Shown in pieces: positions 14,335-52,108 of a DNA stretch of 64,000 nucleotides. This DNA is from a virus. Taxonomy: Duplodnaviria > Caudoviricetes. The stretch lies in IMG/VR virus record IMGVR_UViG_2600254917_000001, positions 1 through 64,000 of that record; one strand, 5' to 3'. The notes beneath the pieces are model-generated. The model was not told the origin of the DNA. It made no database searches and saw only the letters and a program-made list of their open reading frames with translations. The position numbers were made by a program, and so were the translations under genes. The first letter of the stretch is position 1. The number at the start of each line of letters is the position of its first letter.

Positions 14335-14425
14335 GTACGCATCCTAATAAAATATTCAAGAACATTACTCCACATGCATTAAGTAATCATTCCATACATA
14401 TCATGCATGCATTAAATGAACACTT
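14335..14425. repeat. 11-bp-phased ATGCAT-like box array
   Basis: ATGCAT 14374, AATCAT 14385, ACATAT 14396, ATGCAT 14407. Confidence 0.6.
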
Positions 14426-15182
14426 CAGATAGCGCTTTAAACTGGCACAGATAGAAATGTGGCTGAGTAGATCGCGGGTTACCCGGCGCGGTCAGGTTCT
14501 TGCCGTACTCCATCCCCTTGGCAGTCAGGCACCAGTAATACTTCTCGCCCCGCGTGCTGCTCCGCGTCTTCTGCTCGACAATCCCCAGCTCAGCCAGGCG
14601 GACGTAGGCCTTCTGTGCTGACATCTTAACCCCGTGCTCCACAAGCAGCTGGCGGAGGCTGGCCGTTGGTTCGCTACTGCCTCCGGTGGCATCGGGCGGC
14701 GCATCGATGGCGTAGCCTGGTAGCAGGTCCGGTAGCCCAGCTGCGCTTTGCAGTTTTCGCAAGCCTGCCAGCACGCTGCTATCCGATATGTGGAGTAATT
14801 TTCTGCTCACTTCCAGCAGCGCGCCCCCAGCTGCGATCGTGTCGGCCGCGCTGGTGGATAAAGACGGTACCGGCGCTGGCGCGGGTTGCTGCATCGACTC
14901 CAGCTTATCCACCAGCGTACGGCGTACGGCTTTAGACTCGCGGGCGGCGACGCGCAGGGCTTGTTTATGCGAAAGAGTAATGACGTCTACAGGTCGCCCT
15001 CCATTCTCACCTGAGGGTTTTACACTTTTTGTGTAAAACTCCCCTTCCAGCTCATCTTCAACCTTCTCAAGAAATTTATTATTACGGATGTTGGGCTCCC
15101 CGTACTGCTTCCGGGCTTCGTTTACCAGCTTCAGCAGCTCCTGAGTATCGATAAAGCCGTTTGTCATCCTGGTCATCATCAT
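14412..15182 (-). CDS. Antirepressor/Rha-like DNA-binding protein (copy 1)
   Basis: ALRVAARESKAVRR N-domain; C-domain (LTAKGMEYGKNL..P..TQPHF) near-identical to 51368-52108. Confidence 0.8.
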   Translation of the reverse strand: MMMTRMTNGFIDTQELLKLVNEARKQYGEPNIRNNKFLEKVEDELEGEFYTKSVKPSGENGGRPVDVITLSHKQALRVAARESKAVRRTLVDKLESMQQPAPAPVPSLSTSAADTIAAGGALLEVSRKLLHISDSSVLAGLRKLQSAAGLPDLLPGYAIDAPPDATGGSSEPTASLRQLLVEHGVKMSAQKAYVRLAELGIVEQKTRSSTRGEKYYWCLTAKGMEYGKNLTAPGNPRSTQPHFYLCQFKALSEVFI

Positions 15183-15658
15183 GCAGCCTCCCCATCAAAC
15201 ACTGACATCACGAGCGCGCCACCGGCAATGTCCGACGCGGTACCGAGCAGCTGGCGCACGTCCTCAAGATACGTATTGGTGCCGAGCGGCTCCAACAGCT
15301 TTTCAGCGCAGCTGATTAGCGTACGCAGCTGTGAGAATTTCGCATGCAGAACGGGAAGCGCCTCATCTGGTGATAGGTCAAGATCGTCGTCCTGCAGCCA
15401 GGCGCGGCGGTAGTCTGTGACAACCGGTGACATATCCCATGCACGCCATATCGCGCGCTTCACGGCATCGAGCTGAAGCTGGCTTTCGCTTAATGTGGAA
15501 AGTTTTCCTGATGAATTGACCGCAAGGATTCGCGTCGCCAATGCTTCAGCGCAGGCCGGATCTGACAGGCTAATGTACATCGAGAAGCGCAGCGCATTTA
15601 GCGCCAGGGATGATAGCTGGCTATCTGAAGGCAAAGTCTGGGTAGGGATGGTAGCCAT
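15179..15658 (-). CDS. First gene of c4-controlled antirepressor operon (paralog of 50584-51063)
   Basis: MATIP start directly after c4 target; near-identical protein at 50584. Confidence 0.75.
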   Translation of the reverse strand: MATIPTQTLPSDSQLSSLALNALRFSMYISLSDPACAEALATRILAVNSSGKLSTLSESQLQLDAVKRAIWRAWDMSPVVTDYRRAWLQDDDLDLSPDEALPVLHAKFSQLRTLISCAEKLLEPLGTNTYLEDVRQLLGTASDIAGGALVMSVFDGEAA

Positions 15659-15715
15659 GATGGCAGTCCTCGTATACTTGATAGTAAAAAACCATCATCA
15701 CGAACGCCAATTCAT

Positions 15716-15797
15716 GGTGATGGCCCGAACAGGGTTGGCGTAACCGGCGTATACGAAGACCGGCCCGACCGAAGTCGGCCCTGCCCGAGCCACCATA
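15716..15797 (-). ncRNA. c4: c4 antisense RNA (copy A; loops CTTCGTATAC / ACGCCAA)
   Basis: ATGGTGGCTCGGGCAGGGCC..GGCCGG..CCGG..AACCCTGTTCGGGCC scaffold; TTGGCGT and GTATACGA targets both upstream and downstream. Confidence 0.85.
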
Positions 15798-15969
15798 ATT
15801 CTATAGGTGTGCACAGGCACAGACACAAAAAAAGACGCTAACGCGTCAGTGTCGTCGTATACATAAAACGGGACGCCAATCCCGGCACCAGATTTTGCTG
15901 GTGCCCTATTACGCTACTCGACCGAAACAGGCGTAGCAAGGGCTTTTTTACGTGGCGACACTGCGTCAC

Positions 15970-15986
15970 ATATCCTACTAAACATT
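15970..15986. promoter_or_regulatory. Putative C1-like repressor operator
   Basis: ATATCCTACTAAACATT; five near-identical copies in window. Confidence 0.7.
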
Positions 15987-16080
15987 ACATAAAATGCATA
16001 GTAAGAGTTCATTATAAATATCTTCAATGCATTCTCCATGCATATCAAATATGCACCGAGCATGCCTAACACATATTTTA
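15980..16080. repeat. 11-bp-phased ATGCAT-like box array
   Basis: ATGCAT at 15994, 16027 and 16038, all in one 11-bp phase. Confidence 0.6.
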
Positions 16081-16125
16081 GGTTTATGCGCATATCGTGC
16101 CTGAAGGTAACAGAACGGGAATTGC

Positions 16126-16204
16126 TGGTGGTGACTCGAACAGGGTTGGAACTACCGGCGGAGAAACCGGCCCACCTTTCGATGGCCCTGCCCGAGTTAC
16201 CATA
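16126..16204 (-). ncRNA. Orphan c4-like RNA (copy B; loops TTTCTCCG / AGTTCCAA)
   Basis: Same scaffold as copy A with different loops; no clear flanking a/b targets. Confidence 0.75.
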
Positions 16205-16384
16205 TCTGGGATGACAGCGGGAACAAACGAGCCGGTATTCTCCCACCTTCCCCACCAGCCAGCATTGATGCCAGACAAAGGATGCACATTAAACACATAC
16301 AAGATACATATCTGATATTCACACCATAAATCCATCCAGACACCTCCATGCTGGCCGAGCGTGCCGGATTGAACGATAAAAAAG

Positions 16385-16401
16385 ATATCCCACTAAACAT
16401 T
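16385..16401. promoter_or_regulatory. Putative C1-like operator
   Basis: ATATCCCACTAAACATT. Confidence 0.7.
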
Positions 16402-16500
16402 ATCAAATGATGACATCATGCATTTAAAAGTCATCCTTAATGCATTTCATATGCATTCAAAATACATATTAGATAAGCAATTCATGAGCATTATGTAAAC
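16395..16500. repeat. 11-bp-phased ATGCAT-like box array
   Basis: ATGCAT 16418, AGTCAT 16429, ATGCAT 16440, ATGCAT 16451, ATACAT 16462. Confidence 0.7.
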
Positions 16501-16542
16501 CCAACAAATCCAGCCTATACCAGCGCCTTGCCTGCCTACCTG

Positions 16543-16563
16543 GCGGTGCATAATTAATAGACT
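16543..16563 (+). promoter_or_regulatory. Putative late promoter
   Basis: GCGGTGCA-N7-TAGACT upstream of sit. Confidence 0.7.
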
Positions 16564-16587
16564 TCAGCCAATACCCCGCACCAGGTA

Positions 16588-19500
16588 ATGACAATGGCCG
16601 AAGATCAAAACAAGACCGTCGCTGACGATAAGCTCAGCGCTCTCAAAATCATTTCAACGATCGAGAAGACCAGCGCGAAGGAGCTGGACGTATTGCTCTC
16701 CATCGATAAGAAGCTGGATGGCAGAGCTCCGGCCGGGAAAGCGGCACCAACAAGCCCAAAGCGCGACGACAGCTCCCAGCGGCCCCCATCACGGGGCGCC
16801 CAACCTGAACAGGAAAGTATTCCACGTAAACCGAGAACACGATCACATTCTTCGACCACAGGGTTAGGGGAAGTTCATGACGACGGGCTGCGCATAACCC
16901 GCCGAGCGCCGCGTCGTGGGAGGCAAAGTAGAGATCAGGAAATCATTCCACATAAGCGTCAGCAGCCCTCTACCGCCACGATACCAGCGCAGCCTACACC
17001 TGAGCCAAAACTAGAAACCTCAAGCGAACCGGAACGAAAGCGCGACAGTAGCGGTCGGTTTACCAGCTCGGCAGATAAAGCCAGGGAGAAGCGCGAAGAC
17101 GTCCGACACAAAGAGCTTATCGACGAAGAGAAGAAAGGGCAGACGCTTTTCCAGAAGCTCTCTGGCTTCATGGAGCGCCGTAATTCGAAAGAAATGGAGG
17201 GAACGGCCATCGATGCAGCTGGCGCAGCTGCTGGTGGCTCTTTCTGGAAAGCAGGGAAGGAAGCCTGGGAGCTCGTCAGCAATACGCGTGAAATGCTCAT
17301 AAAAGGCAAAGACGATGATGACGACGAGAAGAAAGGCCGGTCTCTGTTTGGTAAGGCGAAAGGGCTCTTTCGTCGGAAGGGGTCCGCACCTCCAGCGCCG
17401 GGAACGGCGACGGGTGATATTCCCGCGCCATCGCTTAAGAGGGCCAACAGCGCACCGGCGATACTGAAAGCTGTGCCGCTAACCTCGACAGTGCGCGGAT
17501 TCGGGATGAAGGGCGCTCTGCAGTCTAGGGCCTCAGCTGGTTCGCTTGATGTAGCCAACCGTAATGTCCAAAAGGCCGTCGTGACAAAGACGGAGGAACA
17601 AACGCAGGCAATTCAGGAGGGCGATCGTCAAATCGTTGAACGCCTTGACGAGCTGCTGGAGAAAAATGGCTCCAGTAATAAAGGCGGTGGCCTGCTGGGC
17701 AAGCTGCTCGGCGGGAAGATTGGTAAAGCGCTGGCCGGGATCGCAGGCCTGTGGGTAGCAAAATACGGTAAAAAGCTGTTCAGCGCCTTAATAGCTGCCG
17801 TCACTGCTGCTGTCGGTCTGGGGCGGGGCAGGGGATTGGGTGGGCGTGATGCTTCCCCGGATATCGACGTTGATCGCAACAAAAAACCAGGCAACAAGAA
17901 GAACAAAAAGCCCAGCTCAAAACCAAAAGGGAAGAGCTGGGTTAAGAAGCTACTCACTAACCCCGTAACCAAGACTGCAGCCGCTACAGTAGCGACCGGC
18001 GCGGCGGCGGGCGCGGCCGTTAAAGCTATCGATGCCAAACCTGTGTCAGCTGCAGACGCCGCCAAAGAAAGCGCTCAGAAGGCCAAGGCCACCGCACCGA
18101 AGACCGGTGATGACGTGAAGGTTGGCCGTCCGGTAGCTGCTGAAGAACGCGCCGCACAGAAGGCTGAGAAGTCCGTCGCTACGAAAGCAACTGCAGAAGC
18201 GACTGAGAAGGGCGCTATCAAAGCCGCGGCGAAGGGTACCGCGAAGATGGGGATGCGGGCGGTTCCGTTGCTCGGGTCAGTAATAATGGCCGCTGTCGAT
18301 GCGTACGACGGCTATTCCGATGAGGAGGCCCAGAGGGAGGCCTTCGGGGTAGAAGAGGGCAAGGAGGTCACCACCGGCGAAAAAGCGGCCTTCTCAGCTG
18401 CGAACATCCTTGACATGGGTGGGCTGGTTTCCGGTGCGTCCGGGCTACTTGCGAGTGGCGCCCGGGCGATCGGTATGGATGGTGTGGCGGACTCACTCAC
18501 CTTCGATACCGGCGATATCGCCAAAGGGATCCACAGCGCGGCAAGCGGGGCTAAAAATGCCGTCACCTCGTTATTCAGCGGGCCAAAAGAGGCTGATTCC
18601 AAAACTGAAGCACAAACGAAGCATATAACCGACACGCTCAAAGAGGGCACGAAGGACACAATCAAAACGCTGGAAGATACCTCTAAGCGGCTGATCGACA
18701 CCATCACCGAAACGAACCCACTCGGCGATGCTGAGGTTATACCCTTAAAGGGTGTTGGTGTTGGTACTAATGGCCCGGCAGTTTCGACAATGCAGGGACC
18801 AAGCGAAACGACAATGACACCGGATCTTAATGTCGGTGGCAGCAAGGCTAAAGTCCGTTCATTCCGTAACAACAACTTCGGGAATATTACATTCGCTGGC
18901 CAAGCTGGCGCCGTGCTGGAGAAGAAAAACTCGCTCGGTGAGCAAAGATTTGCGCGCTGGAACACCCCTGAAGAAGGGCTGCGCGGGACGGCTAACCAGA
19001 TCATGTTGTATCAGACGGGTAAATCCCGATGGGGCAAGCTTGAAACGCTTGACGAGATGTTCGATAGATTTGCCCCACCGAGAGAAAATGATACCGAAAA
19101 TTATAAGCAAAGCCTGGAGAAGCAATTGGGCATCAGTCGACACGACAAAATTGACTGGTCCAACCCTGACAAAATACGTCCCTTAGTCCGTGCCATCGGT
19201 ACAGTTGAGGGTGGCGGCGCTATCCAGATGTCAGACGCTGATATGGCGAAGGCGATCGGTCACTATAATTACGAGACCAATCGCTGGGAGGGAGAATTTA
19301 CCGATCAGTCCCTGGAAAAAATAAACGCTCAACGTGCTAAAACCGGCGAGGCACCACTCAAGGCTACTGACCTTTTCAGTATTGGCAACCCACTTACCGG
19401 GCGAGGGGATATCCCCAAAGCGAATGGTGTAAATCAGTCGTCTCCTGCTGAAGTTTCTCCCATTACGCCAGCCCCCGAGCCTGAGCAGCACGCCCAGGCG

Positions 19501-20295
19501 GCAAAAAATAAACAGGAAATTACTCCACCTAAAACTGCAGCGACGGCAGGAGCCAGCTCCCCCGAGGGTATCACTGCAGGTTCAGTAGCTGGCGCTGTAG
19601 GCGCTGGTGCAAAGGAGATCGGTGGCTATGCGCTGGCTAATGTGGAGGGACTTCGTCAGAAGGACGCCCCTCAAGAGGTTACGCACCAGTCAGCTGAGAT
19701 AAGCAAAGAGAAGCGCGAAGAAGACGCTCAGCGACGTATTAACGCCAGCATACAGAACGGCGAGCAGTACACAGCGGCCAAAATACCACTTACAGATACC
19801 CCGATAATTGGTGAAATAATTAAAAAATTTGGCGGTGATCACGTCGCCAATGCTGAAGGTCTGCGCCATCAAGCCGCACCAGGCTCCAACGCCATGGACC
19901 GCGCTATCGCGTCTCAAGCCGGTAAAGGCCAGCCAACCCCCGTAATCCCAGCCAGAACGAGCGCGGCCCCGCAAACAGTCACCGGCGTTGCCAGCTATTC
20001 GCATCCGAAAGAGCTGTATTCAGTGACCGATCTTCAAAGTGCTACGCCAGCCATGCCAACAGCTGTCGATAAGCCAGCAGATCGCAAAGCGGGCAGCAGC
20101 ACTGTCGACGTCGAAATGAAGATGTTAGCGGCACTCAACAAGATTGCCGGCCTGCTGGAAGACATCAAAAAAGACGGTAGTAGCAAAGACACTCCGCGCT
20201 TCACTTCTGTTAAAAATTCGCCGCAACCGGCCCCGCGCGCAACGATACCGCTCTCGGTTGCCGATCCAACTATGTCCAGTCTTGCGAGCAGATGA
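16588..20295 (+). CDS. sit: Tape measure / injection transglycosylase Sit-like
   Basis: Long Ala/Gly/Lys-rich protein with RSFRNNNFGNI...RFARWNTPEEGLR lysozyme-like domain; synteny. Confidence 0.85.
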   Translation: MTMAEDQNKTVADDKLSALKIISTIEKTSAKELDVLLSIDKKLDGRAPAGKAAPTSPKRDDSSQRPPSRGAQPEQESIPRKPRTRSHSSTTGLGEVHDDGLRITRRAPRRGRQSRDQEIIPHKRQQPSTATIPAQPTPEPKLETSSEPERKRDSSGRFTSSADKAREKREDVRHKELIDEEKKGQTLFQKLSGFMERRNSKEMEGTAIDAAGAAAGGSFWKAGKEAWELVSNTREMLIKGKDDDDDEKKGRSLFGKAKGLFRRKGSAPPAPGTATGDIPAPSLKRANSAPAILKAVPLTSTVRGFGMKGALQSRASAGSLDVANRNVQKAVVTKTEEQTQAIQEGDRQIVERLDELLEKNGSSNKGGGLLGKLLGGKIGKALAGIAGLWVAKYGKKLFSALIAAVTAAVGLGRGRGLGGRDASPDIDVDRNKKPGNKKNKKPSSKPKGKSWVKKLLTNPVTKTAAATVATGAAAGAAVKAIDAKPVSAADAAKESAQKAKATAPKTGDDVKVGRPVAAEERAAQKAEKSVATKATAEATEKGAIKAAAKGTAKMGMRAVPLLGSVIMAAVDAYDGYSDEEAQREAFGVEEGKEVTTGEKAAFSAANILDMGGLVSGASGLLASGARAIGMDGVADSLTFDTGDIAKGIHSAASGAKNAVTSLFSGPKEADSKTEAQTKHITDTLKEGTKDTIKTLEDTSKRLIDTITETNPLGDAEVIPLKGVGVGTNGPAVSTMQGPSETTMTPDLNVGGSKAKVRSFRNNNFGNITFAGQAGAVLEKKNSLGEQRFARWNTPEEGLRGTANQIMLYQTGKSRWGKLETLDEMFDRFAPPRENDTENYKQSLEKQLGISRHDKIDWSNPDKIRPLVRAIGTVEGGGAIQMSDADMAKAIGHYNYETNRWEGEFTDQSLEKINAQRAKTGEAPLKATDLFSIGNPLTGRGDIPKANGVNQSSPAEVSPITPAPEPEQHAQAAKNKQEITPPKTAATAGASSPEGITAGSVAGAVGAGAKEIGGYALANVEGLRQKDAPQEVTHQSAEISKEKREEDAQRRINASIQNGEQYTAAKIPLTDTPIIGEIIKKFGGDHVANAEGLRHQAAPGSNAMDRAIASQAGKGQPTPVIPARTSAAPQTVTGVASYSHPKELYSVTDLQSATPAMPTAVDKPADRKAGSSTVDVEMKMLAALNKIAGLLEDIKKDGSSKDTPRFTSVKNSPQPAPRATIPLSVADPTMSSLASR

Positions 20296-20306
20296 GGCCA
20301 GTTTGA

Positions 20307-20660
20307 ATGATGAATGAAATTGACGCCCTGCTCGAAATTGGTCCGAACGGGGTAATAGTGCATGACGGTGACGAAGCCGCCTTGGTTGAACGCCTGGATG
20401 AGTGGTTATGTACGCCCCGCGGGACGATCTACGGATACCCCGACTGGGGCAACAGGCTGTCACGATTCAAACACGAACCGCCCGACACACCGACAGCAGT
20501 GCAGATCGAGAACGATATTATCAACAGCCTGCGCGTTGATATCCCGGCCCTGACAATCAACAAAATCGTCTGTTCACCAGTCGCATCAGCTTCCGACCGC
20601 TATGACATTGCGGTCGTGCTGGGAAGCGGTGCCGTGATCACGCGAGAGATCACTTTATGA
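20307..20660 (+). CDS. pmgA: Baseplate wedge / sheath initiator (gp25-like) PmgA
   Basis: RLDEWL.TP.G.IYG.P.WGN. Confidence 0.75.
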   Translation: MMNEIDALLEIGPNGVIVHDGDEAALVERLDEWLCTPRGTIYGYPDWGNRLSRFKHEPPDTPTAVQIENDIINSLRVDIPALTINKIVCSPVASASDRYDIAVVLGSGAVITREITL

Positions 20661-22078: not shown

Positions 22079-22079
22079 T

Positions 22080-26085: not shown

Positions 26086-26087
26086 GA

Positions 26088-41725: not shown

Positions 41726-41751
41726 GTGGAAATTTCAATTAATTATTCCAC
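41726..41751. promoter_or_regulatory. Inverted half-iteron repeat, candidate RepA autorepression operator
   Basis: GTGGAA-N14-TTCCAC immediately upstream of repA. Confidence 0.5.
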
Positions 41752-41844
41752 ACAACAAGCGATCCTGCAAAGGCAAATGCCGTACATAACTTATTGGTTA
41801 TGTAGAAGAAAACAAAAAAGATGGGGATAGGATCTTTTCACGTA

Positions 41845-42132: not shown

Positions 42133-42292
42133 ATTTAGGAGGTAAAGCTACTGATTATTAAAGATTTTTTCGGCGATAAAAGGAAGTGGAAAGATGAACA
42201 TTAACAAACGCTCTCGCGTTTGATCGAGGATCTAAAACATGAATGCATAAGATCGCACCTCCTATCTGCCACCTTTAGCATCATGGTCAACG

Positions 42293-43624: not shown

Positions 43625-43644
43625 AATAAATTTAACGTTATGTG

Positions 43645-43661
43645 ATATCCTACTAAACAAT
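43645..43661. promoter_or_regulatory. Putative C1-like operator upstream of ban
   Basis: ATATCCTACTAAACAAT. Confidence 0.7.
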
Positions 43662-43662
43662 A

Positions 43663-43683
43663 TCAATATCATAATTGCACCGC
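43663..43683 (-). promoter_or_regulatory. Putative late promoter for ddrB
   Basis: GCGGTGCA-N7-TATTGA. Confidence 0.55.
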
Positions 43684-43730
43684 TGCTGGTCATCCGCACG
43701 CGGGTGCGTATACTGCATAAAAAAACCGAG

Positions 43731-45146: not shown

Positions 45147-45419
45147 TGTAATTGTAACTTATTGAATTATATAGCCAGGCGGAATGTGTATAGTCTGGCT
45201 TAATGATTTTGGGCTCAGTATATTGATTTTGTTGAAAAAATAATCGAATTTTTCCTCCCTGAATTTACAATCGCTTAAGACTACGTCGTTTGTACGCTCA
45301 TCTTTTTACTTTGTTCTGCATCAAAAAAACCGCAAACATGTTTGATGCGAAACAGTTGTAAGTTCCCCTAAAATACCCAGCAGAACCAGATGGGACGCGC
45401 TTTCAGTGATGAGAGAGCA

Positions 45420-45510
45420 TAAAAAAAGCCCAACTGGTTTCGTTGGGCCTTTTTCATTTTTGGTACGGACTGGCGGGTCTGTACCGGATGAAACTGTCTT
45501 CATCTAACGT
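45420..45510 (-). ncRNA. Divergent antisense antitoxin sRNA (AgrB-like)
   Basis: 17-nt AACTGTCTTCATCTAAC 45492-45508 repeats at 45660-45676 in the toxin leader; TTGATT-N17-TATCAT promoter; GCCCAAC hairpin with poly-U. Confidence 0.75.
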
Positions 45511-45751
45511 TGCGAATGATATGCCCGGGTGATCCCAAAATCAACGGGGCGAGATCATGAAATCGTTAGTGAAATTGTAAAGGCCTGGCGAGCGTGGAGT
45601 TTTTTTCACGCTCCTGGCTGGCGAGCGAAGTTTGCAAACCAGTGCTCCAACAACGAGGGAACTGTCTTCATCTAACAGCGTTGGCAGGCCGTAGCGACGG
45701 GAAGTGTAAGAGTAAGCTACTGCTGTTCCTCTCGCAGTTTATGGAGGAACT

Positions 45752-45829
45752 ATGATCGACATTGACCATGTGATCTTAGCTCTGAACGCACTTCTAGTGT
45801 GTTTAGAGATAGCTAAAGCCTTCCTCTAA
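45752..45829 (+). CDS. Type I toxin, DinQ-like (25 aa MIDIDHVILALNALLVCLEIAKAFL)
   Basis: GGAGG SD in GTTCCTC/GAGGAAC hairpin; terminator 45846-45875. Confidence 0.8.
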   Translation: MIDIDHVILALNALLVCLEIAKAFL

Positions 45830-45966
45830 GGCTTATAGCGCCTTCAAGGCCAGAGCCAGTCTCTGGCCTTTTTTTATTCTGTATCAACATTTCAAATAGC
45901 CAAAAGCCGATAATCGAATCTCGAAAACTGTTAACTATATGTTTTAATTAATCATTTGGTGAATAT

Positions 45967-46299
45967 ATGAAGGGATTTATATTAGCTTTGGCGGTACTTC
46001 TTCCAGTTAGTGCATTTGCAACAGATTACACCAAAGTTAACTGCACCAGCGATAGCGCCCGTTCGATGTTATTAGAAGAATACAATCGGATGCTCAAGGA
46101 ACATGCTCAAGACGTGTCTGTTGTTGATTTATATGATATGAAGATTATAAAGCAATCAGAAAAGACTTTGGTTTGTGAAGGCCTAATGGATTTTTCTACT
46201 GGTGAAACCGGGATTTCAGGGACATTTAGTTTGAAGGATAATTCTTTCGGTAAAGCTACGATCTTCGTTAAGCTGAATGTCGAAGATGAAGAAGAATGA
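45967..46299 (+). CDS. Small secreted protein
   Basis: Signal peptide ending AFA; two Cys; low GC. Confidence 0.7.
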   Translation: MKGFILALAVLLPVSAFATDYTKVNCTSDSARSMLLEEYNRMLKEHAQDVSVVDLYDMKIIKQSEKTLVCEGLMDFSTGETGISGTFSLKDNSFGKATIFVKLNVEDEEE

Positions 46300-46346
46300 T
46301 AGCGATACGCAAGTGCCGAATGTTCAGGCACTTGCGTAACGAGTCA

Positions 46347-46727
46347 CTATGCTGCCCGGGCAAACTTATCGGGATTGTTGCTTACCCAGGCAACCGCGCC
46401 TTTTTTAACTTCATCAAGGGAGATGTACTCGGGTTCGTACGCATCAATCTGCCTCAGTGTTTTAATGAAATCACTTGCCGGCACGGAAGAGAATACGCCC
46501 GCCTTAAAGTCAGTAACGATCTGTGGCTCTTCCCCTGCTGGTGGTTTACCCGGGGCCTCCGGTTCTGGCTTAGTCTCTTCATCTGCGCTGTAACCCAGTA
46601 GAATCAGGACTTCGTTAATCTGTTCGAGCAATTCAAGCAGATCGAGTCCTTTCGCGGTTGGGCGTTGTATGAGAAGGTCAACAAGTCGGTCCTGAAGGTC
46701 GAGCCGTTGGAGTGGTGATAAGCTCAT
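46347..46727 (-). CDS. ddrA: DdrA-like protein
   Basis: MSLSPLQRLDLQDRL.DL....TAKGLDLL; follows darA. Confidence 0.7.
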   Translation of the reverse strand: MSLSPLQRLDLQDRLVDLLIQRPTAKGLDLLELLEQINEVLILLGYSADEETKPEPEAPGKPPAGEEPQIVTDFKAGVFSSVPASDFIKTLRQIDAYEPEYISLDEVKKGAVAWVSNNPDKFARAA

Positions 46728-46731
46728 CGTG

Positions 46732-48696
46732 TTACCCCTTTGCTATTTGCTGCATAAGATCGCCCAAGTGCTGACTGGCCGTGTCAAACATATTCTGATA
46801 CTGCTCCAGCACACCAGCGCCATCCAGAACGGCGTAAGCTTCACGAAGTTTCTTTAGATGCTCCTTTATCTCGGTTAGGCTGGCGTCAGTTAGCGCTGCG
46901 GCGCTCTGAATGGCTTCAAGGGCTGCAGTTACCTCTGCATTGTTGCCTGGTTCAACAGGGTCAGGTTTTTCCTCTTCCGGGTTCGGTATCGGTTCCGGCA
47001 TTTCAGGATCTGGGGTTGAAGTGATGAAAATTGGCGTACCTTCAGACAGCGCACCAGCAATTTGCTCTGTGTGGTAGCTGGCCATCTGAAATACATCTTC
47101 GTAACGGGCTTGATATGCCTCGTTTGAATAGATGATCTTGCCCGCTTCACTCAATTTGTTTTCGGCCTCCCGCCACTCTTCCATGGTGGGCTGATTCGAT
47201 AAATTGGCAACATAATTCAGATTTTGGAGAGCCAGTTTTAAGTCATCTGGCATTTCATCAGGTATCAGGAAACGTTTTGGCTGGGGGAGCTCAATCCCAC
47301 CTGCAGAAAACTCCTCCTGAAGCTCAACGAGGTGAGCATCCGCTTTATTCAGCTGGTCGATATACTGGTCAAGAACGTGGGCGCCTTGTAATGCGTAACG
47401 CTGCTGAAGGAGCTGCTTAGCAGCATTGTCGACGGCTTCAGAGCCGGACTTAATTGTTAATGCATTGGCGCTGTCAATGGCAGCGAGCGCGGCGTCGATG
47501 ATTGATTTAGTTGCATCGTTTGAAGCCATATCATTCGCCTTGTACTTATCAGCTTTCCCGTCACGATACAGCTTCAGCAGCTTCTTGGCTGTGTCCTGCA
47601 TCGCTCCGCCTTGTGAGGATGGACTATCAATTTTATACACACCGCCATCCGGCGCAGTGATCGTCACCCAGCCAACAAGCTCACCATTTTTGTCTGCACT
47701 GTTCATTTGAATGACCGCGCCGTTTGAGAGGGTGTGTTGACCGCCCATCTGCAGGTTTTGGGTTACCTGGCGGGTTTTATCCTCAATATCAGGCTTAACC
47801 GTGACCGGTGCTGGTGGCTCTTTATCAGGTTCACGGTTCGGTAGCTGTGCCTTCATCTTGTCAATTTCAGTCTGTAGTGAAGCGTTAATGGATGCCTGCT
47901 TGTCTGCCAGCTTACGGTATTTATCGTACTCATTATCGAGCTCCACGCCGGTAGCGTTGAGCTGGTCTCCCTGGTCTACGAGTGCGCTAATTTGGCCTGC
48001 CAGCTCGGTGCTGGTGGCTTCAACTTCGTTAATATCGGCCAGCAGGCGGGCATTTTTATCGCGGGAACGCTGGAATTTCTCAGAGTTTCGCTCAATCAGG
48101 TTAGACAGGATCTGCGTCGTCTGTTTTAACGACATGTCCCGGCCGCCCATCGGCACCACTGTATGAGTCACGTCGCGTTTATTGAGGAAAAAGCGAAACG
48201 CAACCAGCGTATCATTTGACGTGATTTTTGACGTGTCGCCAGTCGGCGAGTGGAAGACTATGGTAACCGTCTGGCCGTCGCTCAAGGGTATCTGAGCAGG
48301 GAGTAGGGCGATGCTGCCAAATCGGCGCGCTTTGCCAATCTCCGCCCCGCCCAGAACCCGACTACCGTCAGAAACAGAGGCGGCATCGGATACGCCTGCA
48401 GTAATCCCCGTTCCCGTGAGCGCCTCGTTCAGCGAACGAACAAAGGCGCGCATGGTTTGCGAAATACGCGCACGGCTGGTGGTAATGGCTTCGAGTAACA
48501 TACCAACAGACAGATCGAGGTCGGTATCGTAGAAATATAGCGATTCGAAATCGTTCATATCCCATGATTCAAGCAGAAGATGGTGCTGGCCATTTGATTG
48601 AAGCTCATCGAATCGCTGATCGCTCACCGCATAATTATGTAGGTCCATGCGGTCCCTGATCGTTATTGCGTCACGCATGCGCAAATTAGTTAGCAT
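46732..48696 (-). CDS. darA: DarA antirestriction/head protein
   Basis: MLLEAI, PLSDGQTVTIVFHSP, F.LNKRDVTH.V.P. Confidence 0.85.
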   Translation of the reverse strand: MLTNLRMRDAITIRDRMDLHNYAVSDQRFDELQSNGQHHLLLESWDMNDFESLYFYDTDLDLSVGMLLEAITTSRARISQTMRAFVRSLNEALTGTGITAGVSDAASVSDGSRVLGGAEIGKARRFGSIALLPAQIPLSDGQTVTIVFHSPTGDTSKITSNDTLVAFRFFLNKRDVTHTVVPMGGRDMSLKQTTQILSNLIERNSEKFQRSRDKNARLLADINEVEATSTELAGQISALVDQGDQLNATGVELDNEYDKYRKLADKQASINASLQTEIDKMKAQLPNREPDKEPPAPVTVKPDIEDKTRQVTQNLQMGGQHTLSNGAVIQMNSADKNGELVGWVTITAPDGGVYKIDSPSSQGGAMQDTAKKLLKLYRDGKADKYKANDMASNDATKSIIDAALAAIDSANALTIKSGSEAVDNAAKQLLQQRYALQGAHVLDQYIDQLNKADAHLVELQEEFSAGGIELPQPKRFLIPDEMPDDLKLALQNLNYVANLSNQPTMEEWREAENKLSEAGKIIYSNEAYQARYEDVFQMASYHTEQIAGALSEGTPIFITSTPDPEMPEPIPNPEEEKPDPVEPGNNAEVTAALEAIQSAAALTDASLTEIKEHLKKLREAYAVLDGAGVLEQYQNMFDTASQHLGDLMQQIAKG

Positions 48697-49312
48697 TCAA
48701 TTCGCCCTCCAGGTTAGCGAGCTGTGATTTTAACTGCCGGGTCATGGCGCGTTCCGTTTCCAGTCGGGCTTTTTCCTGATCCAGCTGACTGCGAACGCCA
48801 GCCTGGCGTGTCTGCTCCTCAGCGATGACCTTATTCAACGTCTCGACCTTTGCGTTGTTCGAAGCTGCAACCTCTTTGGCCTCGGAAAGACGTTGGACAT
48901 TGGATTTAACCTGCGGTCTGGCCGTGAGTTTTTTTGTGGCGCCAGCAACCTTTTTCGCCAGGCTCTTGGCAAAAGCAGGTGCAGCCTGCTCAGCTGCGCG
49001 ACCAATAATCTGTCCCATGGACGCGACGGTCTTCGCATGAGGAAGAGGCATCTTCTTGCCATTGATCGTGAAGCCAGAAATGTCGCCGGTGTCGTTAACC
49101 TGTAAAACGATCTCCTGCTGATCCTCAAGGTGTAGCGACACGGTTTTGACCGGAATACCATCTTTCTTAGTCGCTTTATTCGTTGAATCGACGGAAACGA
49201 CGTCTGGGCCTGCTTTATTTATCGCCGTAATGAGGGTCTTCAGACCTTTTTCGTTGATCTGTTCAAAGTTCAGAACGGCGTACTGCTGTTTATTCGGCGC
49301 TGGCATGTTCAT
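48686..49312 (-). CDS. hdf: Hdf protein
   Basis: FEQINEKGLK.L, QVNDTGDIS; between lydB and darA. Confidence 0.85.
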   Translation of the reverse strand: MNMPAPNKQQYAVLNFEQINEKGLKTLITAINKAGPDVVSVDSTNKATKKDGIPVKTVSLHLEDQQEIVLQVNDTGDISGFTINGKKMPLPHAKTVASMGQIIGRAAEQAAPAFAKSLAKKVAGATKKLTARPQVKSNVQRLSEAKEVAASNNAKVETLNKVIAEEQTRQAGVRSQLDQEKARLETERAMTRQLKSQLANLEGELNAN

Positions 49313-49754
49313 TACTCTCTGCGTTCAGCGTGTAAGTGCGTTCCACGTTGTCGACGAACGGGAACAGGCGGTAGAAGGGATTCCAGTTCATAAAGGACTT
49401 GCCATGGATGACACGAACCTTTAATACCCATTCGCCACTGTGGCGTACCTGCGATTTGTTGATCGCTAAATATTCTTCTTGGATGCCGCGAGACATGACC
49501 AGCGGCCGGGTTTTGCCCTGGATAACCAATACCGGGCGTTGCTTATCAATGAGCTGATACTGCACAACGCCGTCGTGTTTTGCGGCCTTCGTTTTGTAGC
49601 GGAGGGGAAACAAGAATTGATCACCGTCGTCAACAACATCACCCAGCGGGATATCGTGTAATCTCAAGCGTCTCAGTCGCAGTATCAAGCGGTCTACTGC
49701 CAGCACACCTACAACAACTGCAAGACTTGATAAATGGCTTCCTAATTCGGTCAT
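49290..49754 (-). CDS. lydB: Antiholin LydB-like
   Basis: V.HG.SF...NP.YR.FP motif. Confidence 0.8.
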   Translation of the reverse strand: MTELGSHLSSLAVVVGVLAVDRLILRLRRLRLHDIPLGDVVDDGDQFLFPLRYKTKAAKHDGVVQYQLIDKQRPVLVIQGKTRPLVMSRGIQEEYLAINKSQVRHSGEWVLKVRVIHGKSFMNWNPFYRLFPFVDNVERTYTLNAESNEHASAE

Positions 49755-50086
49755 TTCTTCCCTCCGTTGGTACTAAAGTGCGAGAGCCAGCGCTTAACAA
49801 ACTCAACGCTGCCAGGCCCAACAAGAGCCATTACCTCGTCGCCATTGCTTGAAAGTAAAATAATTAACCCGTAGATCAGCTTTTCCGGCAGCTCGCGCCA
49901 CTGGCCGATGAATGCGGTCAAGATGCCGACCATGATCGCCATCGTTATGTCTGCACCCAGCTCAAGCACGGTGGTTTTTTTACTGCCGTTTCTGACATCG
50001 CATAAGTAACCGCCCAGCCCACTCATAATTGATAGCGGGACGGCAAGCACGACCTGCGGGAGCTCGCTGATAAAATTGATACTCAC
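49751..50086 (-). CDS. lydA: Holin LydA-like
   Basis: TM helices, GLGGYLCDVRNG, SSNGDEV. Confidence 0.8.
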   Translation of the reverse strand: MSINFISELPQVVLAVPLSIMSGLGGYLCDVRNGSKKTTVLELGADITMAIMVGILTAFIGQWRELPEKLIYGLIILLSSNGDEVMALVGPGSVEFVKRWLSHFSTNGGKK

Positions 50087-50109
50087 GGTGCCTCCTTAGT
50101 TTTCGCCGG

Positions 50110-50130
50110 AGGCTAACTTAAATGCACCGC
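50110..50130 (-). promoter_or_regulatory. Putative late promoter for lydA-darA operon
   Basis: GCGGTGCA-N7-TAGCCT. Confidence 0.7.
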
Positions 50131-50164
50131 GCGGTGTATTTATGTGCAATGAGCTCGATTTAGG

Positions 50165-50245
50165 AATATGTAAAGGTTGATGCACATAAAATATGTATCT
50201 TATGCATTCAATATAAATCTAAGGTGCATTTGATAGGTGTATTTT
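50165..50245. repeat. 11-bp-phased ATGCAT-like box array
   Basis: ATGCAC 50180, ATATGT 50191, ATGCAT 50202, ATAAAT 50213, GTGCAT 50224. Confidence 0.6.
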
Positions 50246-50447
50246 GTGATTGCCACAAAATAATAAAGTGTTAGTATAGGATTATGTGTCGCCGTCCGCC
50301 GCTTGACCTTCATTAACGGCTTCGAGTAGCGTGATAAAGCACCAGCAAAATCTGGTGCCGGGATTGGCGTCCCGGAAATGGTTACAGGCGACACAGACGC
50401 GCCAGCGTCTTTTTTTTTGTGTCAGTGCTCTTGCACACCTATAGAAT

Positions 50448-50530
50448 TATGGTGGCTCGGGCAGGGCCACCGAAAGGTGGGCCGGTTTCCTGTAACGCCG
50501 GTTACGCCAACCCTGTTCGGGCCATCACCA
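50448..50530 (+). ncRNA. c4: c4 antisense RNA (copy C; loops TCCTGTAAC / ACGCCAA)
   Basis: c4 scaffold; TTGGCGT and GTTACAGG targets at 50364-50388 and 50536-50572. Confidence 0.85.
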
Positions 50531-50583
50531 TGAATTGGCGTTCGTGTTGATGGTTATCATGACCGTTACAGGAGACTGCCTTC

Positions 50584-51063
50584 ATGGCTACCACCCCTAC
50601 CCAAACTCAGCCGTCATCTGACGAACTGGCCTACTTGGCACTTAACGCGCTGCGTTTCTCGATGTACATCAGCCTGTCAGATCCGGCCTGCGCTGAAGCA
50701 TTAGCAACACGAATCCTTTTAACCAATCCATCAGAAAATCATTCCACATTAAGCGACAACCAGCTCCAGCTCGATGCCGTAAAGCGCGCGATATGGCGCG
50801 CATGGGATATGTCACCGGTTGTCACAGACTACCGCCGTGCATGGCTGCAGGACGACGATCTGGACCTGTCACCAGACGATGCGCTTCCCGTTCTCTTTGC
50901 GAAGTTCTCTCAGCTGCGTACGTTGATCAGCTGCGCAGAAAAGCTGCTGGAGCCGCTCGGCAGCAATACGTATCTCGAAGACGTGCGCCAGCTGCTCGGA
51001 ACCGCGTCGGACATTGCTGGTGGCGCGCTCGTCATGTCAGTGTTTGATGGGGAGGCAGCATGA
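50584..51063 (+). CDS. First gene of c4-controlled operon (paralog of 15179-15658)
   Basis: Near-identical 159-aa protein. Confidence 0.75.
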   Translation: MATTPTQTQPSSDELAYLALNALRFSMYISLSDPACAEALATRILLTNPSENHSTLSDNQLQLDAVKRAIWRAWDMSPVVTDYRRAWLQDDDLDLSPDDALPVLFAKFSQLRTLISCAEKLLEPLGSNTYLEDVRQLLGTASDIAGGALVMSVFDGEAA

Positions 51064-51371
51064 AATCTATCCACGTAAACTTTCATGGTACCGAGCTGTT
51101 TATCATCGAGCACAACGGCGAACCGTATACACCGATGAAACCGATCGTTGAAGGAATGGGGCTGGACTGGAAAAGTCAGTTGGTTAAGTTTAACAAGCGG
51201 TTTAACTCAACTATGGTGGAAATCACCATGGTTGCAGCAGACGATAAATCCCGCGGTATGATCTGTCTTCCGCTGCGCAAGCTTGTTGCGTGGCTAAACA
51301 GCATTAGCGCGAACAAAGTAAAGCCGGAGCTACGAAACCGCCTGCTGCAATGCCAGGAGGGTATCGCATGA
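51060..51371 (+). CDS. P22 Ant N-terminal domain antirepressor
   Basis: FHGTEL...EHNGEPYTPMKPIVEGMGLDWKSQ, CLPLRKL..WL.SI. Confidence 0.85.
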   Translation: MKSIHVNFHGTELFIIEHNGEPYTPMKPIVEGMGLDWKSQLVKFNKRFNSTMVEITMVAADDKSRGMICLPLRKLVAWLNSISANKVKPELRNRLLQCQEGIA

Positions 51372-52108
51372 TGCTGGCAACCGAAGTGCGAATGACAAGC
51401 AGGGAGATTGCCGAACTAACGGGTAAACGACACCCAGATGTGAAGCGTGATATCGACACTATGCTCGTTGAGCTCAATGAAGATGTGAGCAATTTTGCTC
51501 ACATCTACTTGGACAGCATGAACCGGCAGCAAACTGAGTTCAGTCTCGATCGCCTGCATGTTGAATGCCTTCTTATGGGCTACAGTGCAACCCTGCGCAT
51601 GAAGGTCCTTAAGCGCCTGAAAGAGCTCGAATCGCTCCAACAAGATGCGCCGGTGCCGTCGGTCCCCAGCAGCGCAGCCGACACGATCGCAGCTGGCGGA
51701 GCTCTGCTGGAAGTGAGCAGAAAATTACTCCACATATCGGATAGCAGCGTGCTCGCGGGGCTACGCAAACTGCAAAGCGCAGCTGGGCTGCCGGACCTGC
51801 TCCCGGGTTACGCCATCGATGCACCACCGTCCGCCACGGGCGGCAGCAGTGAGCCAACGGCGAGCCTTCGCCAGCTGCTGGTGGAGAACGGGGTGAAGAT
51901 GTCCGCGCAAAAAGCGTATGCCCGCCTGGCGGAGCTGGGGATTGTCGAGCAGAAGACGCGGACCAGCACCCGCGGCGAAAAGCATTACTGGTGCCTGACG
52001 GCCAAGGGCATGGAGTACGGCAAGAACCTGACCGCGCCGGGGAACCCCCGCGCTACCCAGCCGCACTTCTTCACTTCGCGTTTCACTAGACTGGTTGAGC
52101 AGCTGTAA
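51368..52108 (+). CDS. Rha-family regulator with antirepressor-type C-domain
   Basis: MTSREIAELTGKRH.DV.RDI; C-domain shared with 14412-15182. Confidence 0.85.
   Translation: MMLATEVRMTSREIAELTGKRHPDVKRDIDTMLVELNEDVSNFAHIYLDSMNRQQTEFSLDRLHVECLLMGYSATLRMKVLKRLKELESLQQDAPVPSVPSSAADTIAAGGALLEVSRKLLHISDSSVLAGLRKLQSAAGLPDLLPGYAIDAPPSATGGSSEPTASLRQLLVENGVKMSAQKAYARLAELGIVEQKTRTSTRGEKHYWCLTAKGMEYGKNLTAPGNPRATQPHFFTSRFTRLVEQL

What the first reader, a model, noticed from the sequence alone, without database searches (positions are those of the whole stretch)
14412..52108. Duplicated, inverted c4-antirepressor cassettes with co-varying RNA specificity and swapped N-domains
Seen: 14412-15915(-) and 50330-52108(+) share the leader, c4, a near-identical 159-aa gene and the C-terminal antirepressor domain. 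The c4 b-loop and both of its targets changed together (GTATACGA vs GTTACAGG), and the middle modules differ (one N-domain versus Ant-N plus Rha). Inference: two orthogonally insulated anti-immunity circuits sit in one phage-plasmid, whereas P1 has a single immI. The inverted homology could also invert the ~34-kb intervening segment and shuffle domains.
Basis: partly seen in the sequence, partly recalled or inferred. Interest (0 to 1): 0.7.

Follow-up and report, generated by a model that had tools for sequence, protein, structure and literature searches.

The report
Four stacked antisense-gated antirepressor cassettes
A P1-like phage-plasmid of Enterobacter carries four complete copies, not two, of phage P1's "anti-immunity" switch, each locked by its own small antisense RNA with its own recognition code, plus two stand-alone lock RNAs; this is a known switch stacked more heavily than in published relatives.

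Summary
14412-15921(-) and 50322-52108(+) are diverged inverted copies (86-94% over four blocks) of a P1 immI-type operon: terminated leader (Rfam isrK), C4 RNA (Rfam RF01695, ~80 bits), a 159-aa gene in the icd position, and an antirepressor coupled by ATGA overlap. The c4 b' loop co-varies with b1 and b2.

The reading is incomplete. The 95,253-bp genome holds four full cassettes (two lie beyond the window, at 64.6-66.1 and 91.5-93.0 kb) and six C4 RNAs, two of them orphans (16124-16207-, 63490-63576+). A and C share the a' element and differ only at b', so their insulation is predicted, not shown.

All paralogs are under purifying selection (dN/dS 0.03-0.26; dS 0.4-2.7), so they are old, functional duplicates and not artefacts.

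The proposed 34-kb inversion has no support: two complete Enterobacter kobei plasmids, 66-90% identical by segment, are collinear throughout.

Stacking is already present in published genomes: D6 has 2 hits plus a weak one, RCS47 has 2, and pYU39_89's second c4-icd region was noted in print. This scan has also reported two- and four-cassette P1-like elements on other DNA.

New here are the number, the orphan c4 RNAs, the 159-aa replacement of icd, and three N-modules on one shared C-domain.

The parts
14412..15182 (-). antA, 256 aa: P1-Ant-type N-module plus the C-domain shared by all four Ants
   Evidence: ORF. 58% identity to P1 Ant1 residues 112-233. phrog_1726 anti-repressor and phrog_129. 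The start overlaps the stop of the 159-aa gene (ATGA). dN/dS of the C-domain is 0.03-0.11.
15179..15658 (-). 159-aa gene of cassette A, in the icd position; function unknown
   Evidence: ORF. No Pfam, PHROG or NCBIfam match, and not similar to P1 Icd. Only 20 clusters in 5.8 billion proteins. dN/dS 0.13-0.26.
15670..15710 (-). a2 (15704-15710, TTGGCGT) and b2 (15670-15677, GTATACGA, abutting the Shine-Dalgarno) targets of c4-A
   Evidence: Sequence. Loop-only duplex energy b'-b2 is -15.3 kcal/mol cognate against -5.2 to -8.1 non-cognate.
15713..15800 (-). c4-A antisense RNA (b' TCGTATAC at 15749-15756; a' ACGCCAA at 15735-15741)
   Evidence: Rfam RF01695, 79.8 bits, full length.
15828..15904 (-). 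Leader A (isrK-type) with a1 (15873-15879), b1 (15855-15862) and an intrinsic terminator (15834-15847 plus T-run)
   Evidence: Rfam RF01394, 75.6 bits. Terminator scan. Coordinates.
15911..15985 (-). Inferred promoters of cassette A: proximal TTGCTA-17-TAGCGT (15911-15939) and an upstream copy of the dispersed motif ATGTTTAGTAGGATAT (15970-15985)
   Evidence: Sequence. The motif recurs at about ten intergenic sites, including upstream of cassettes D and E and of orphan oA, and near c1. The layout parallels P1 Oc4/P2c4/P1c4. Function is inferred.
16124..16207 (-). Orphan C4 RNA 'oA' (short b' loop TTTCTCCG; a' AGTTCCAA), with its own upstream motif copy at 16385-16400
   Evidence: Rfam RF01695, 63.4 bits. 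No leader, 159-aa gene or ant behind it, and no a+b target pair anywhere in the genome.
50250..50332 (+). Inferred promoters of cassette C: TTGCCA-16-TAGTAT with TG (50250-50277) and proximal TTGACC-18-TAGCGT (50303-50332)
   Evidence: Promoter scan. Sequence. Function is inferred.
50339..50415 (+). Leader C (isrK-type) with a1 (50364-50370), b1 (50381-50388) and a terminator (50395-50410 plus T-run)
   Evidence: Rfam RF01394, 79.5 bits. Terminator scan.
50445..50532 (+). c4-C antisense RNA (b' CCTGTAAC at 50489-50496; a' ACGCCAA at 50504-50510)
   Evidence: Rfam RF01695, 80.3 bits.
50535..50572 (+). a2 (50535-50541) and b2 (50565-50572, GTTACAGG, abutting the Shine-Dalgarno) targets of c4-C
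   Evidence: Sequence. Duplex energy b'-b2 is -17.0 kcal/mol cognate against -5.6 to -7.3 for the c4 of the other three cassettes.
50584..51063 (+). 159-aa gene of cassette C
   Evidence: ORF. 89% identical to the A copy.
51060..51371 (+). Stand-alone P22_AR_N (antirepressor N-terminal) ORF, 103 aa, chained by ATGA overlaps on both sides
   Evidence: PF10547, 5e-33. 65% identical to residues 1-98 of a relative's fused 285-aa P22_AR_N+C-domain Ant. Junction sequence.
51368..52108 (+). antC, 246 aa from the ATG at 51368: Rha N-module plus the shared C-domain
   Evidence: PF09669. AGGAGG lies 8 nt upstream and the ATGA overlaps the previous stop. The C-domain is 85% identical to that of P0041.
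63490..63576 (+). Orphan C4 RNA 'oD' (b' loop ATGTCGCCGCG; a' TGTTGCAA)
   Evidence: Rfam RF01695, 60.8 bits. No cassette behind it. Its a' equals that of the E. kobei plasmid cassette at 88 kb. No cognate target in this genome.

Best explanation
The two loci are members of a set of four paralogous P1-immI-type operons in one P1-like phage-plasmid. Cassettes A and C lie in the window. Cassettes D and E lie at 64.6-66.1 kb and 91.5-93.0 kb of the same 95-kb genome. Each operon reads: promoter(s), a short terminated leader carrying sites a1 and b1, a C4 antisense RNA with exposed elements a' and b', sites a2 and b2 with b2 on the ribosome-binding site, a 159-aa gene, and one or two antirepressor genes chained to it by overlapping stop/start codons. 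By analogy with P1, the prophage makes each C4 RNA continuously. Each C4 RNA pairs with a2/b2 of its own transcript, blocks translation of the 159-aa gene, and so blocks the coupled antirepressor. The leader's a1/b1 copy is a second, co-evolving partner, acting as a decoy or anti-antisense as IsrK does in Gifsy-1. When an antirepressor is made, it inactivates a C1-type repressor. Because each cassette has its own a'/b' code, a resident relative must carry all four codes to silence this phage's antirepressors. Conversely, this prophage's six C4 RNAs can silence incoming relatives of up to six codes. The two orphan C4 RNAs would be 'locks without a weapon', kept after the loss of their cassettes. 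Shown here: the anatomy, the Rfam membership, the co-variation, purifying selection and lineage conservation. Inferred: expression, actual orthogonality, the repressor target, and the arms-race rationale.
For: Counts in the genome: six C4 hits of 60.8-80.3 bits, four isrK-type leaders, four shared Ant C-domains, four 159-aa genes, and one C1 homologue with a coi-like ORF upstream. The layout maps element by element onto the annotated P1 immI: Oc4, P2c4/P1c4, a1, b1, c4, a2, b2, icd, ant1 overlapping icd. Cognate pairing is specific. Loop-only duplex energies for b' are -11.5 to -17.4 kcal/mol on the diagonal; 22 of the 24 values between different full cassettes lie between -4.1 and -9.1, the exceptions being D on E b2 (-11.2) and E on D b1 (-9.9). 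Over 12 distinct full cassettes from this genome, two E. kobei plasmids, P1, P7, RCS47 and D6, the cognate pairing total is 349. In 3000 permutations it is 245 +/- 12.6 (maximum 308), with none reaching the observed value. At syntenic positions a' changes together with a1 and a2 while b' stays, for example ACGCCAA, GTTCGAA and TGTTGCAA at the C position. Paralogs are under purifying selection: dN/dS is 0.13-0.26 for the 159-aa gene and 0.03-0.11 for the Ant C-domain, with dS 0.4-2.7. ATGA overlaps and a Shine-Dalgarno sequence sit at each junction. Stacking is lineage-wide: 3 C4 in each E. kobei plasmid, several Ant paralogs per roughly 95-kb contig in E. hormaechei, E. kobei and E. coli, and 4-5 fold summed contig depth over the repeated parts in two independent sequencing runs. 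At the A position of the E. kobei plasmids the leader is gone, ant is N-terminally truncated and one copy has ATC for ATG. Yet the C4 RNA still scores 79-81 bits. This is the pattern expected if C4 is kept when ant decays.
Against: No expression data: no RNA run was listed. A and C share a', a1 and a2 exactly, so c4-A can still pair with part of C's mRNA and the reverse; only b' (5 of 8 positions differ) separates them. All four Ants share one C-domain and the genome has a single C1 homologue, so the four may be functionally redundant. The 159-aa protein is not an Icd homologue and its role is unknown. The orphans have no identified target in this genome or in IMG/VR. One has a shortened loop and each has one non-canonical stem pair, so they may be inert remnants.
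Confidence: 0.72

Rival explanations
1. The cassettes are specialised by their N-modules rather than, or besides, their RNA codes. The P1-Ant-type, Rha and P22_AR_N modules would each recognise a different repressor, for instance those of co-resident prophages or competing phage-plasmids. The shared C-domain would supply a common activity.
For: Three N-module types sit on one C-domain in this lineage. The N-module grouping (A with D; C with E) conflicts with the flanking modules, where A is closest to C. This shows modules were exchanged and kept. The AntA model has separate N (8-98) and C (170-256) domains joined by a poorly predicted linker.
Against: Only one C1 homologue is present in the genome. 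A and D share an N-type, as do C and E, so four codes cover only two or three N-types.
Confidence: 0.3
2. One reading: the inverted A/C homology acts as a recombination substrate that flips the 34-kb segment between the cassettes and shuffles domains.
For: The repeats are inverted and contain identical runs of 52, 50, 38 and 37 bp. Domain exchange did happen at the linker at some time in the past.
Against: Flanks (1-14400) and interior (16588-56000) all match the same strand in the same order in two complete E. kobei plasmids 66-90% identical by segment. Homology between the copies is only 82-88%. dS between A and C is 0.39-0.67, so there has been no homogenisation. No inversion isomer could be looked for, because all available runs are contigs.
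Confidence: 0.07
3. The extra copies are redundant duplicates drifting toward loss, without distinct roles.
For: The A-position cassette is degraded in both E. kobei plasmids. The two orphan C4 RNAs look like remains of lost cassettes. The 103-aa P22_AR_N ORF looks like the severed head of a fused Ant.
Against: In this genome all four cassettes are intact, with coupled starts, low dN/dS despite dS up to 2.7, and matched a/b codes at three sites each. That matching needs continued selection.
Confidence: 0.1
4. One copy is an assembly artefact.
For: None found. Short-read contigs do break inside the repeats.
Against: The copies differ by 12-18% with compensated changes. Syntenic copies exist in two complete circular plasmids. 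Independent runs from 2017 and 2022 show several distinct variants of the repeated parts, each at single-copy depth.
Confidence: 0.01

Closest known systems
Phage P1/P7 immI operon (Oc4, P2c4/P1c4, a1 b1, c4, a2 b2, icd, ant1/ant2)
   Same: Same order of elements. The C4 RNA belongs to the same Rfam family. b2 lies on the ribosome-binding site. ant is coupled to the upstream ORF by a 4-nt overlap. Specificity is set by a few bases in a' and b', as between P1 and P7. The AntA and AntD N-module is 58% identical to the middle of P1 Ant1.
   Different: Four operons plus two solo C4 RNAs, against one in P1 and P7. The first ORF is an unrelated 159-aa protein, not the 73-aa Icd. The Ant C-domain is not P1's KilAC type. 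Three alternative N-modules occur. The leader is of the isrK type, with a strong terminator.
Gifsy-1 isrK-orf45-anrP locus of Salmonella (PMC4825925)
   Same: The leader matches Rfam isrK at 75-80 bits. It has a terminator that must be read through to reach the antirepressor gene. It carries sequence complementary to the downstream RNA.
   Different: In Gifsy-1 the short IsrK RNA was shown to activate translation in trans, and the antirepressor switches on an antiterminator. Here nothing is tested, the element is a P1-like plasmid prophage, and there are four loci with different codes.
Second immI-like cassettes in published P1-supercluster genomes: D6 (MF356679), RCS47 (NC_042128), pYU39_89 (PMC6799933), pTZ20_1P and pSvP1 (PMC6906374)
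   Same: More than one c4-icd-ant unit in one phage-plasmid. D6 has two annotated icd/antirepressor pairs, two C4 hits over the cut-off and a third at 40 bits. RCS47 has two C4 hits. The second c4-icd region of pYU39_89 and the extra ant between pacB and c1 were noted in print.
   Different: Those genomes have two units, D6 perhaps three, with true Icd homologues. I found no paper that analyses the codes as an orthogonal set. Here there are four units plus two orphans, in a rare Enterobacter lineage: only 2 of 72,556 PLSDB plasmids and no phage record carry the 159-aa gene.
Domain shuffling among KilA-N / Bro-N / Rha / ANT phage regulators (my recollection of Iyer, Koonin and Aravind 2002; not checked here)
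   Same: Alternative N-modules joined to a common C-module at a linker.
   Different: Here the shuffling is seen among paralogs inside one genome and its close relatives, with one exchange leaving a stand-alone 103-aa N-module.

Membership tests
P1/P7 immI-type antisense-controlled antirepressor operon | C4 antisense RNA (Rfam RF01695) above the gathering score | tested here: met
   79.8 and 80.3 bits for A and C, 80.1 and 71.6 for D and E, 63.4 and 60.8 for the orphans; gathering score 45.
P1/P7 immI-type antisense-controlled antirepressor operon | Exposed a' and b' complementary to a2 and b2 between c4 and the first ORF, with b2 at the ribosome-binding site | tested here: met
   Met in all four cassettes. 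Permutation test across 12 cassettes: 0 of 3000 reach the observed pairing.
P1/P7 immI-type antisense-controlled antirepressor operon | Second copy of the targets (a1, b1) in the leader upstream of c4 | tested here: met
   a1 and b1 are present and co-vary in A, C, D and E. The A-position cassettes of the E. kobei plasmids lack a leader.
P1/P7 immI-type antisense-controlled antirepressor operon | First ORF is an Icd homologue | tested here: not met
   BLASTP E = 0.4 against P1 Icd. NCBIfam NF033153 hits P1 Icd but none of the 159-aa proteins. Only the first ~8 codons (MATIPTQT) resemble the Icd-like genes of D6 and RCS47.
P1/P7 immI-type antisense-controlled antirepressor operon | ant translationally coupled to the upstream ORF | tested here: met
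   4-nt ATGA overlaps at 15179-15182, 51060-51063 and 51368-51371, and in D and E. Coupling itself is inferred from the overlap.
P1/P7 immI-type antisense-controlled antirepressor operon | Ant homologous to P1 Ant1/Ant2 | tested here: inconclusive
   The N-module of AntA and AntD is homologous (58% identity, E = 1e-43). The Rha-type AntC and AntE align only marginally. The shared C-domain has no match to P1 Ant or to Pfam KilAC.
P1/P7 immI-type antisense-controlled antirepressor operon | C1-controlled operator/promoter upstream plus a constitutive promoter for c4 | tested here: inconclusive
   A dispersed asymmetric motif lies upstream of A, D, E and oA and at about six other intergenic sites. 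Promoter-like hexamers are present. Binding by the C1 homologue is untested.
P1/P7 immI-type antisense-controlled antirepressor operon | Ant inactivates C1; c4 processed by RNase P; c4 represses in trans | not testable with these tools
No RNA run was listed.
IsrK-type leader (Rfam RF01394) | Match above the gathering score, with a terminal intrinsic terminator, upstream of an antirepressor gene | tested here: met
   Four hits of 75.3-79.5 bits; gathering score 50. Terminators found.
IsrK-type leader (Rfam RF01394) | Hfq binding and trans-activation of translation by the short form | not testable with these tools
   Shown only for Gifsy-1 (PMC4825925).
Invertible DNA segment bounded by inverted repeats | Both orientations of the segment found among relatives or within a population | tested here: not met
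   Both E. kobei plasmids are collinear with this genome through flanks and interior. A population-level test was not possible because all runs are contigs.

The most novel reading that the evidence does not exclude
P1-like phage-plasmids run a combinatorial two-address RNA immunity code, in which a' and b' assort independently. They accumulate 'keys' (c4-gated antirepressor cassettes of different code) and 'locks' (C4 RNAs) in an arms race with relatives. Orphan C4 RNAs are selected immunity-only determinants, retained after their antirepressor genes decay. They protect the prophage from induction by superinfecting phages of codes it no longer carries as weapons.
Probability: 0.3. Interest if true: 0.7.

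Novelty: new variant of a known kind. Interest (0 to 1): 0.45.

Why it matters
P1/P7 heteroimmunity is the textbook case of an antisense RNA setting phage immunity specificity. This genome suggests the specificity is modular and stackable. Two short address elements vary independently, each co-evolving with two target sites, and one element can carry four armed circuits plus two bare RNAs. If the predicted orthogonality holds, three things follow. It would explain how related phage-plasmids that share a C1-type repressor compete inside Enterobacter and Escherichia hosts. It would give a natural rationale for orphan C4-like sRNAs, which are common in enterobacterial genomes: the leader-plus-c4 module matches 2167 of 5426 complete E. 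coli genomes. It would also supply a ready-made natural set of orthogonal RNA repressor/target pairs on one scaffold. The 159-aa protein that replaces Icd is a conserved unknown, confined to this lineage.

Tried and rejected

Searches for the 159-aa gene:
- The search for related loci found no relative in IMG/VR or in GTDB species representatives.
- The D6 genome paper (PMC5800970) is not held.

Structure and family searches:
- The fold of the 159-aa protein came out at pLDDT 49 and all-helical, too poor to search with. The ESM Atlas gave nothing above chance level.
- The AntA model has pLDDT 69. Foldseek against PDB gave no match at E <= 0.001, only weak winged-helix-type rows (PadR/LmrR, CodY), which I do not rely on.
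- A profile search against PDB sequences found nothing.

RNA interaction modelling:
- Co-folding whole C4 with whole targets gives only -2.6 to -6.4 kcal/mol on the diagonal, and 0 for cassette E. Nested folding cannot represent loop-loop contacts, so I used loop-only duplex energies instead.

Orphan alleles:
- Exact searches of IMG/VR for the two orphan loops found only chance hits in GC-rich coding DNA, or none.
- The oD b' loop pairs with a conserved GGCGACA(C/T) beside b1 of cassettes C, D and E (-13 to -14 kcal/mol). This is 8 nt without a matching a', so I treat it as possibly chance.

Expression and isomers:
- No RNA holder was listed among the sequencing runs.
- All runs are contigs, so inversion isomers could not be sought.

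Literature:
- A search for papers on multiple antirepressors in one phage returned nothing relevant.

Full report
WHAT IS THERE

The window is the first 64 kb of a 95,253-bp viral record. It encodes a Sit-like tail transglycosylase, a DarB-like 2291-aa protein, tail sheath, baseplate, portal and a DnaB-type helicase. It also encodes a C1 homologue (30% identical to P1-type C1) with a coi-like ORF upstream.

Its nearest complete relatives are two circular, non-mobilizable Enterobacter kobei plasmids of 96 and 109 kb, 66-90% identical by segment. It is therefore a distant P1-like phage-plasmid.

THE OBSERVATION

Four inverted-repeat blocks of 86-94% identity join 14453-15921 to 50322-52070. Rfam finds a full-length C4 RNA and an isrK-type leader in each copy.

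Both copies read as follows:
- promoter-like sites;
- a leader ending in an intrinsic terminator;
- the C4 RNA;
- a 159-aa gene;
- antirepressor gene(s).

Each gene start overlaps the previous stop by ATGA.

The 8-nt b' loop of each C4 (TCGTATAC in A, CCTGTAAC in C) is complementary to one site in its own leader and one abutting its own Shine-Dalgarno sequence. A pairwise view shows that the differences between the two regulatory regions are concentrated at b1, b', b2 and a compensated hairpin.

WHAT THE FINDING LEAVES OUT

The genome has six C4 RNAs, four isrK-type leaders, four 159-aa genes and four copies of the Ant C-domain.

Two further complete cassettes lie just past the window:
- D: leader 64597-64672, c4 64700-64787, 159-aa gene 64841-65320, ant 65317-66075, plus strand.
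- E: leader 92905-92982, c4 92793-92880, 159-aa gene 92261-92740, ant 91497-92264, minus strand.

D and E differ from A and C in both address elements:
- D: a' AGTCTCAA with targets TTGAGAC; b' CCGTGTGT with targets ACACA(T/C)GG.
- E: a' AGGCTAA with targets TTAGCC; b' CCTTGTGC with targets GCACAAGG.

A and C share a' (ACGCCAA) and both of its targets exactly, and differ only at b'.

Two C4 RNAs are orphans. One lies at 16124-16207(-), 410 nt upstream of cassette A, with its own copy of the upstream motif. The other lies at 63490-63576(+). Neither has a leader, a 159-aa gene or an ant behind it, and neither has a matching a+b target pair in the genome.

IS THE CO-VARIATION MORE THAN CHANCE?

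I extracted 12 distinct full cassettes: four from this genome, three from the E. kobei plasmids, P1, P7, the second RCS47 cassette and two from D6. I summed the longest contiguous pairing of a' and b' with their four target windows.

The cognate total is 349. In 3000 permutations of RNA-to-target assignment it is 245 +/- 12.6, with a maximum of 308.

Loop-only duplex energies inside this genome are -11.5 to -17.4 kcal/mol for cognate b' pairs. Of the 24 values between different full cassettes, 22 lie between -4.1 and -9.1; the two exceptions are D on E b2 (-11.2) and E on D b1 (-9.9). The orphan oD reaches -14.4 on cassette leaders.

The two addresses assort independently. At the syntenic C position b' stays GTTACAGG-specific, while a', a1 and a2 change together: ACGCCAA here, GTTCGAA in one E. 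kobei plasmid, TGTTGCAA in the other. At the A position b' stays and a' changes. P1 and D6 share a' and differ at b', as A and C do.

ARE THE PARALOGS ALIVE?

dN/dS is 0.13-0.26 for the 159-aa genes and 0.03-0.11 for the Ant C-domain. dS is 0.4-2.7. These are old duplicates under purifying selection, so they are neither assembly artefacts nor recent copies.

Independent short-read assemblies from 2017 and 2022 hold the locus. They break inside the repeats and show four to five variants of the repeated parts, each at single-copy depth.

THE PROTEINS

The 159-aa protein is not Icd. It has no family in Pfam, PHROGs or NCBIfam. It belongs to a family of only 20 clusters among 5.8 billion proteins. 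It occurs in 2 of 72,556 plasmids and in no phage record. Its fold could not be predicted with confidence. Only its first eight codons resemble the Icd-like genes of D6 and RCS47. This suggests a replacement just inside the ORF that kept the regulatory 5' end.

The four Ants share a C-terminal region of ~150 aa. A and D carry the P1-Ant-type N-module. C and E carry Rha.

In relatives a third type exists in which P22_AR_N is fused directly to the C-domain (~280 aa). Cassette C looks like such a gene into which a Rha module was inserted at the linker. That event left a stand-alone 103-aa P22_AR_N ORF, chained by ATGA overlaps on both sides.

HOW IT MOST LIKELY WORKS

The layout maps element by element onto the annotated P1 immI. 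My reading follows from that:
- Each C4 RNA, made in the lysogen, pairs with a2/b2 of its own transcript.
- This blocks translation of the 159-aa gene and, through coupling, of Ant.
- The leader's a1/b1 copy is a co-evolving second partner. It may act as a decoy, as the short IsrK RNA does in Gifsy-1.

An upstream motif, ATGTTTAGTRnGATAT, recurs at about ten intergenic sites, including upstream of A, D, E and oA and near c1. This resembles the dispersed C1 operators of P1, but binding is untested.

The stacking is best read as accumulation of heteroimmunity determinants. There are four differently coded antirepressor circuits that a resident relative would have to silence one by one. There are six C4 RNAs that can silence incoming relatives.

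The E. kobei plasmids show the decay path that would produce orphans. At their A position the leader is lost, ant is truncated and one start codon reads ATC, yet C4 still scores 79-81 bits. All functional steps here are inferred.

THE INVERSION IDEA

Flanks and interior are collinear on one strand in both E. kobei plasmids. A and C are only 82-88% identical, with a longest identical run of 52 bp. They have coexisted long enough to reach dS 0.4-0.7. Inversion isomers in a population could not be tested, because only contigs are available.

WHAT IS KNOWN

C4 hits per genome:
- P1: 1
- P7: 1
- RCS47: 2
- D6: 2 over the cut-off, plus one at 40 bits in tandem
- E. kobei plasmids: 3 each
- this genome: 6

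D6 carries two annotated icd/antirepressor pairs. A second c4-icd region in the D6-like pYU39_89 was called noteworthy in print. Extra ant genes in RCS47, pTZ20_1P and pSvP1 have been described. I found no paper that treats such sets as orthogonal codes.

Earlier notes of this scan report two- and four-cassette P1-like elements on other DNA, and the same six C4 RNAs on this genome. I had counted the six before reading those notes.

VERDICT

This is a known switch in an unusually stacked form, with orphan RNAs, a lineage-specific replacement of icd and modular antirepressors: a new variant of a known kind, of moderate interest.

Noticed in passing
window 16124-16207(-) and 63490-63576(+): Two orphan C4 RNAs (63.4 and 60.8 bits) with no cassette behind them. 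The a' of the second (TGTTGCAA) equals that of a full cassette in an E. kobei plasmid. Its b' loop pairs with a conserved GGCGACA(C/T) next to b1 of cassettes C, D and E.
   Followed up: partly
window 15970-15985(-), 16385-16400(-), 36688(-), 43645(-), 53251(+); genome 64516(+), 70466(+), 75592(+), 93047(-), 93230(-): The asymmetric motif ATGTTTAGTRnGATAT is dispersed at intergenic sites, including upstream of three cassettes, one orphan c4 and the c1/coi region. It is a candidate operator or promoter of a C1-type regulon.
   Followed up: partly
window 50419-50447(+): A promoter-like site (GTGTCA-17-TAGAAT) lies between the leader terminator and c4-C, so c4 might be transcribed on its own as well as processed from read-through. 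A similar TATAGAAT precedes c4-A and c4-D. It is not conserved in cassette E or in the E. kobei plasmids.
   Followed up: no
L007:2959-3600(-), L007:1239-1523(-); L014 (E. kobei plasmids): The cassette syntenic with A is degraded in both E. kobei plasmids: no leader, ant truncated at its N-terminus, a further Ant C-domain fragment nearby, and ATC in place of the 159-aa gene's ATG in one plasmid. The C4 RNA stays intact.
   Followed up: partly
window 13200-14240(-): A class-3 lipase family gene (PF01764, 8e-15) lies directly beside cassette A and is conserved at the same place in the E. kobei plasmids. This is unusual cargo next to the tail genes.
   Followed up: no
window 52206-52946(+): A 246-aa ORF downstream of cassette C with a glycine-rich centre and no match in Pfam or PHROGs.
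   Followed up: no
L026 (phage D6 75792-75871, minus strand): D6 has a third, sub-threshold C4-like RNA (40 bits) in tandem upstream of its 75.2-kb cassette. Its linker (TGTTCCA) is complementary to TGGAACA just downstream, ahead of two small annotated ORFs. This parallels the orphan upstream of cassette A here.
   Followed up: no
E. coli complete genomes: The leader-plus-c4 part of the cassette matches 2167 of 5426 complete E. coli genomes, with up to 6 places per genome, mostly on chromosomes next to Icd-like genes. The RNA module is therefore ubiquitous, while the 159-aa gene is not.
   Followed up: no
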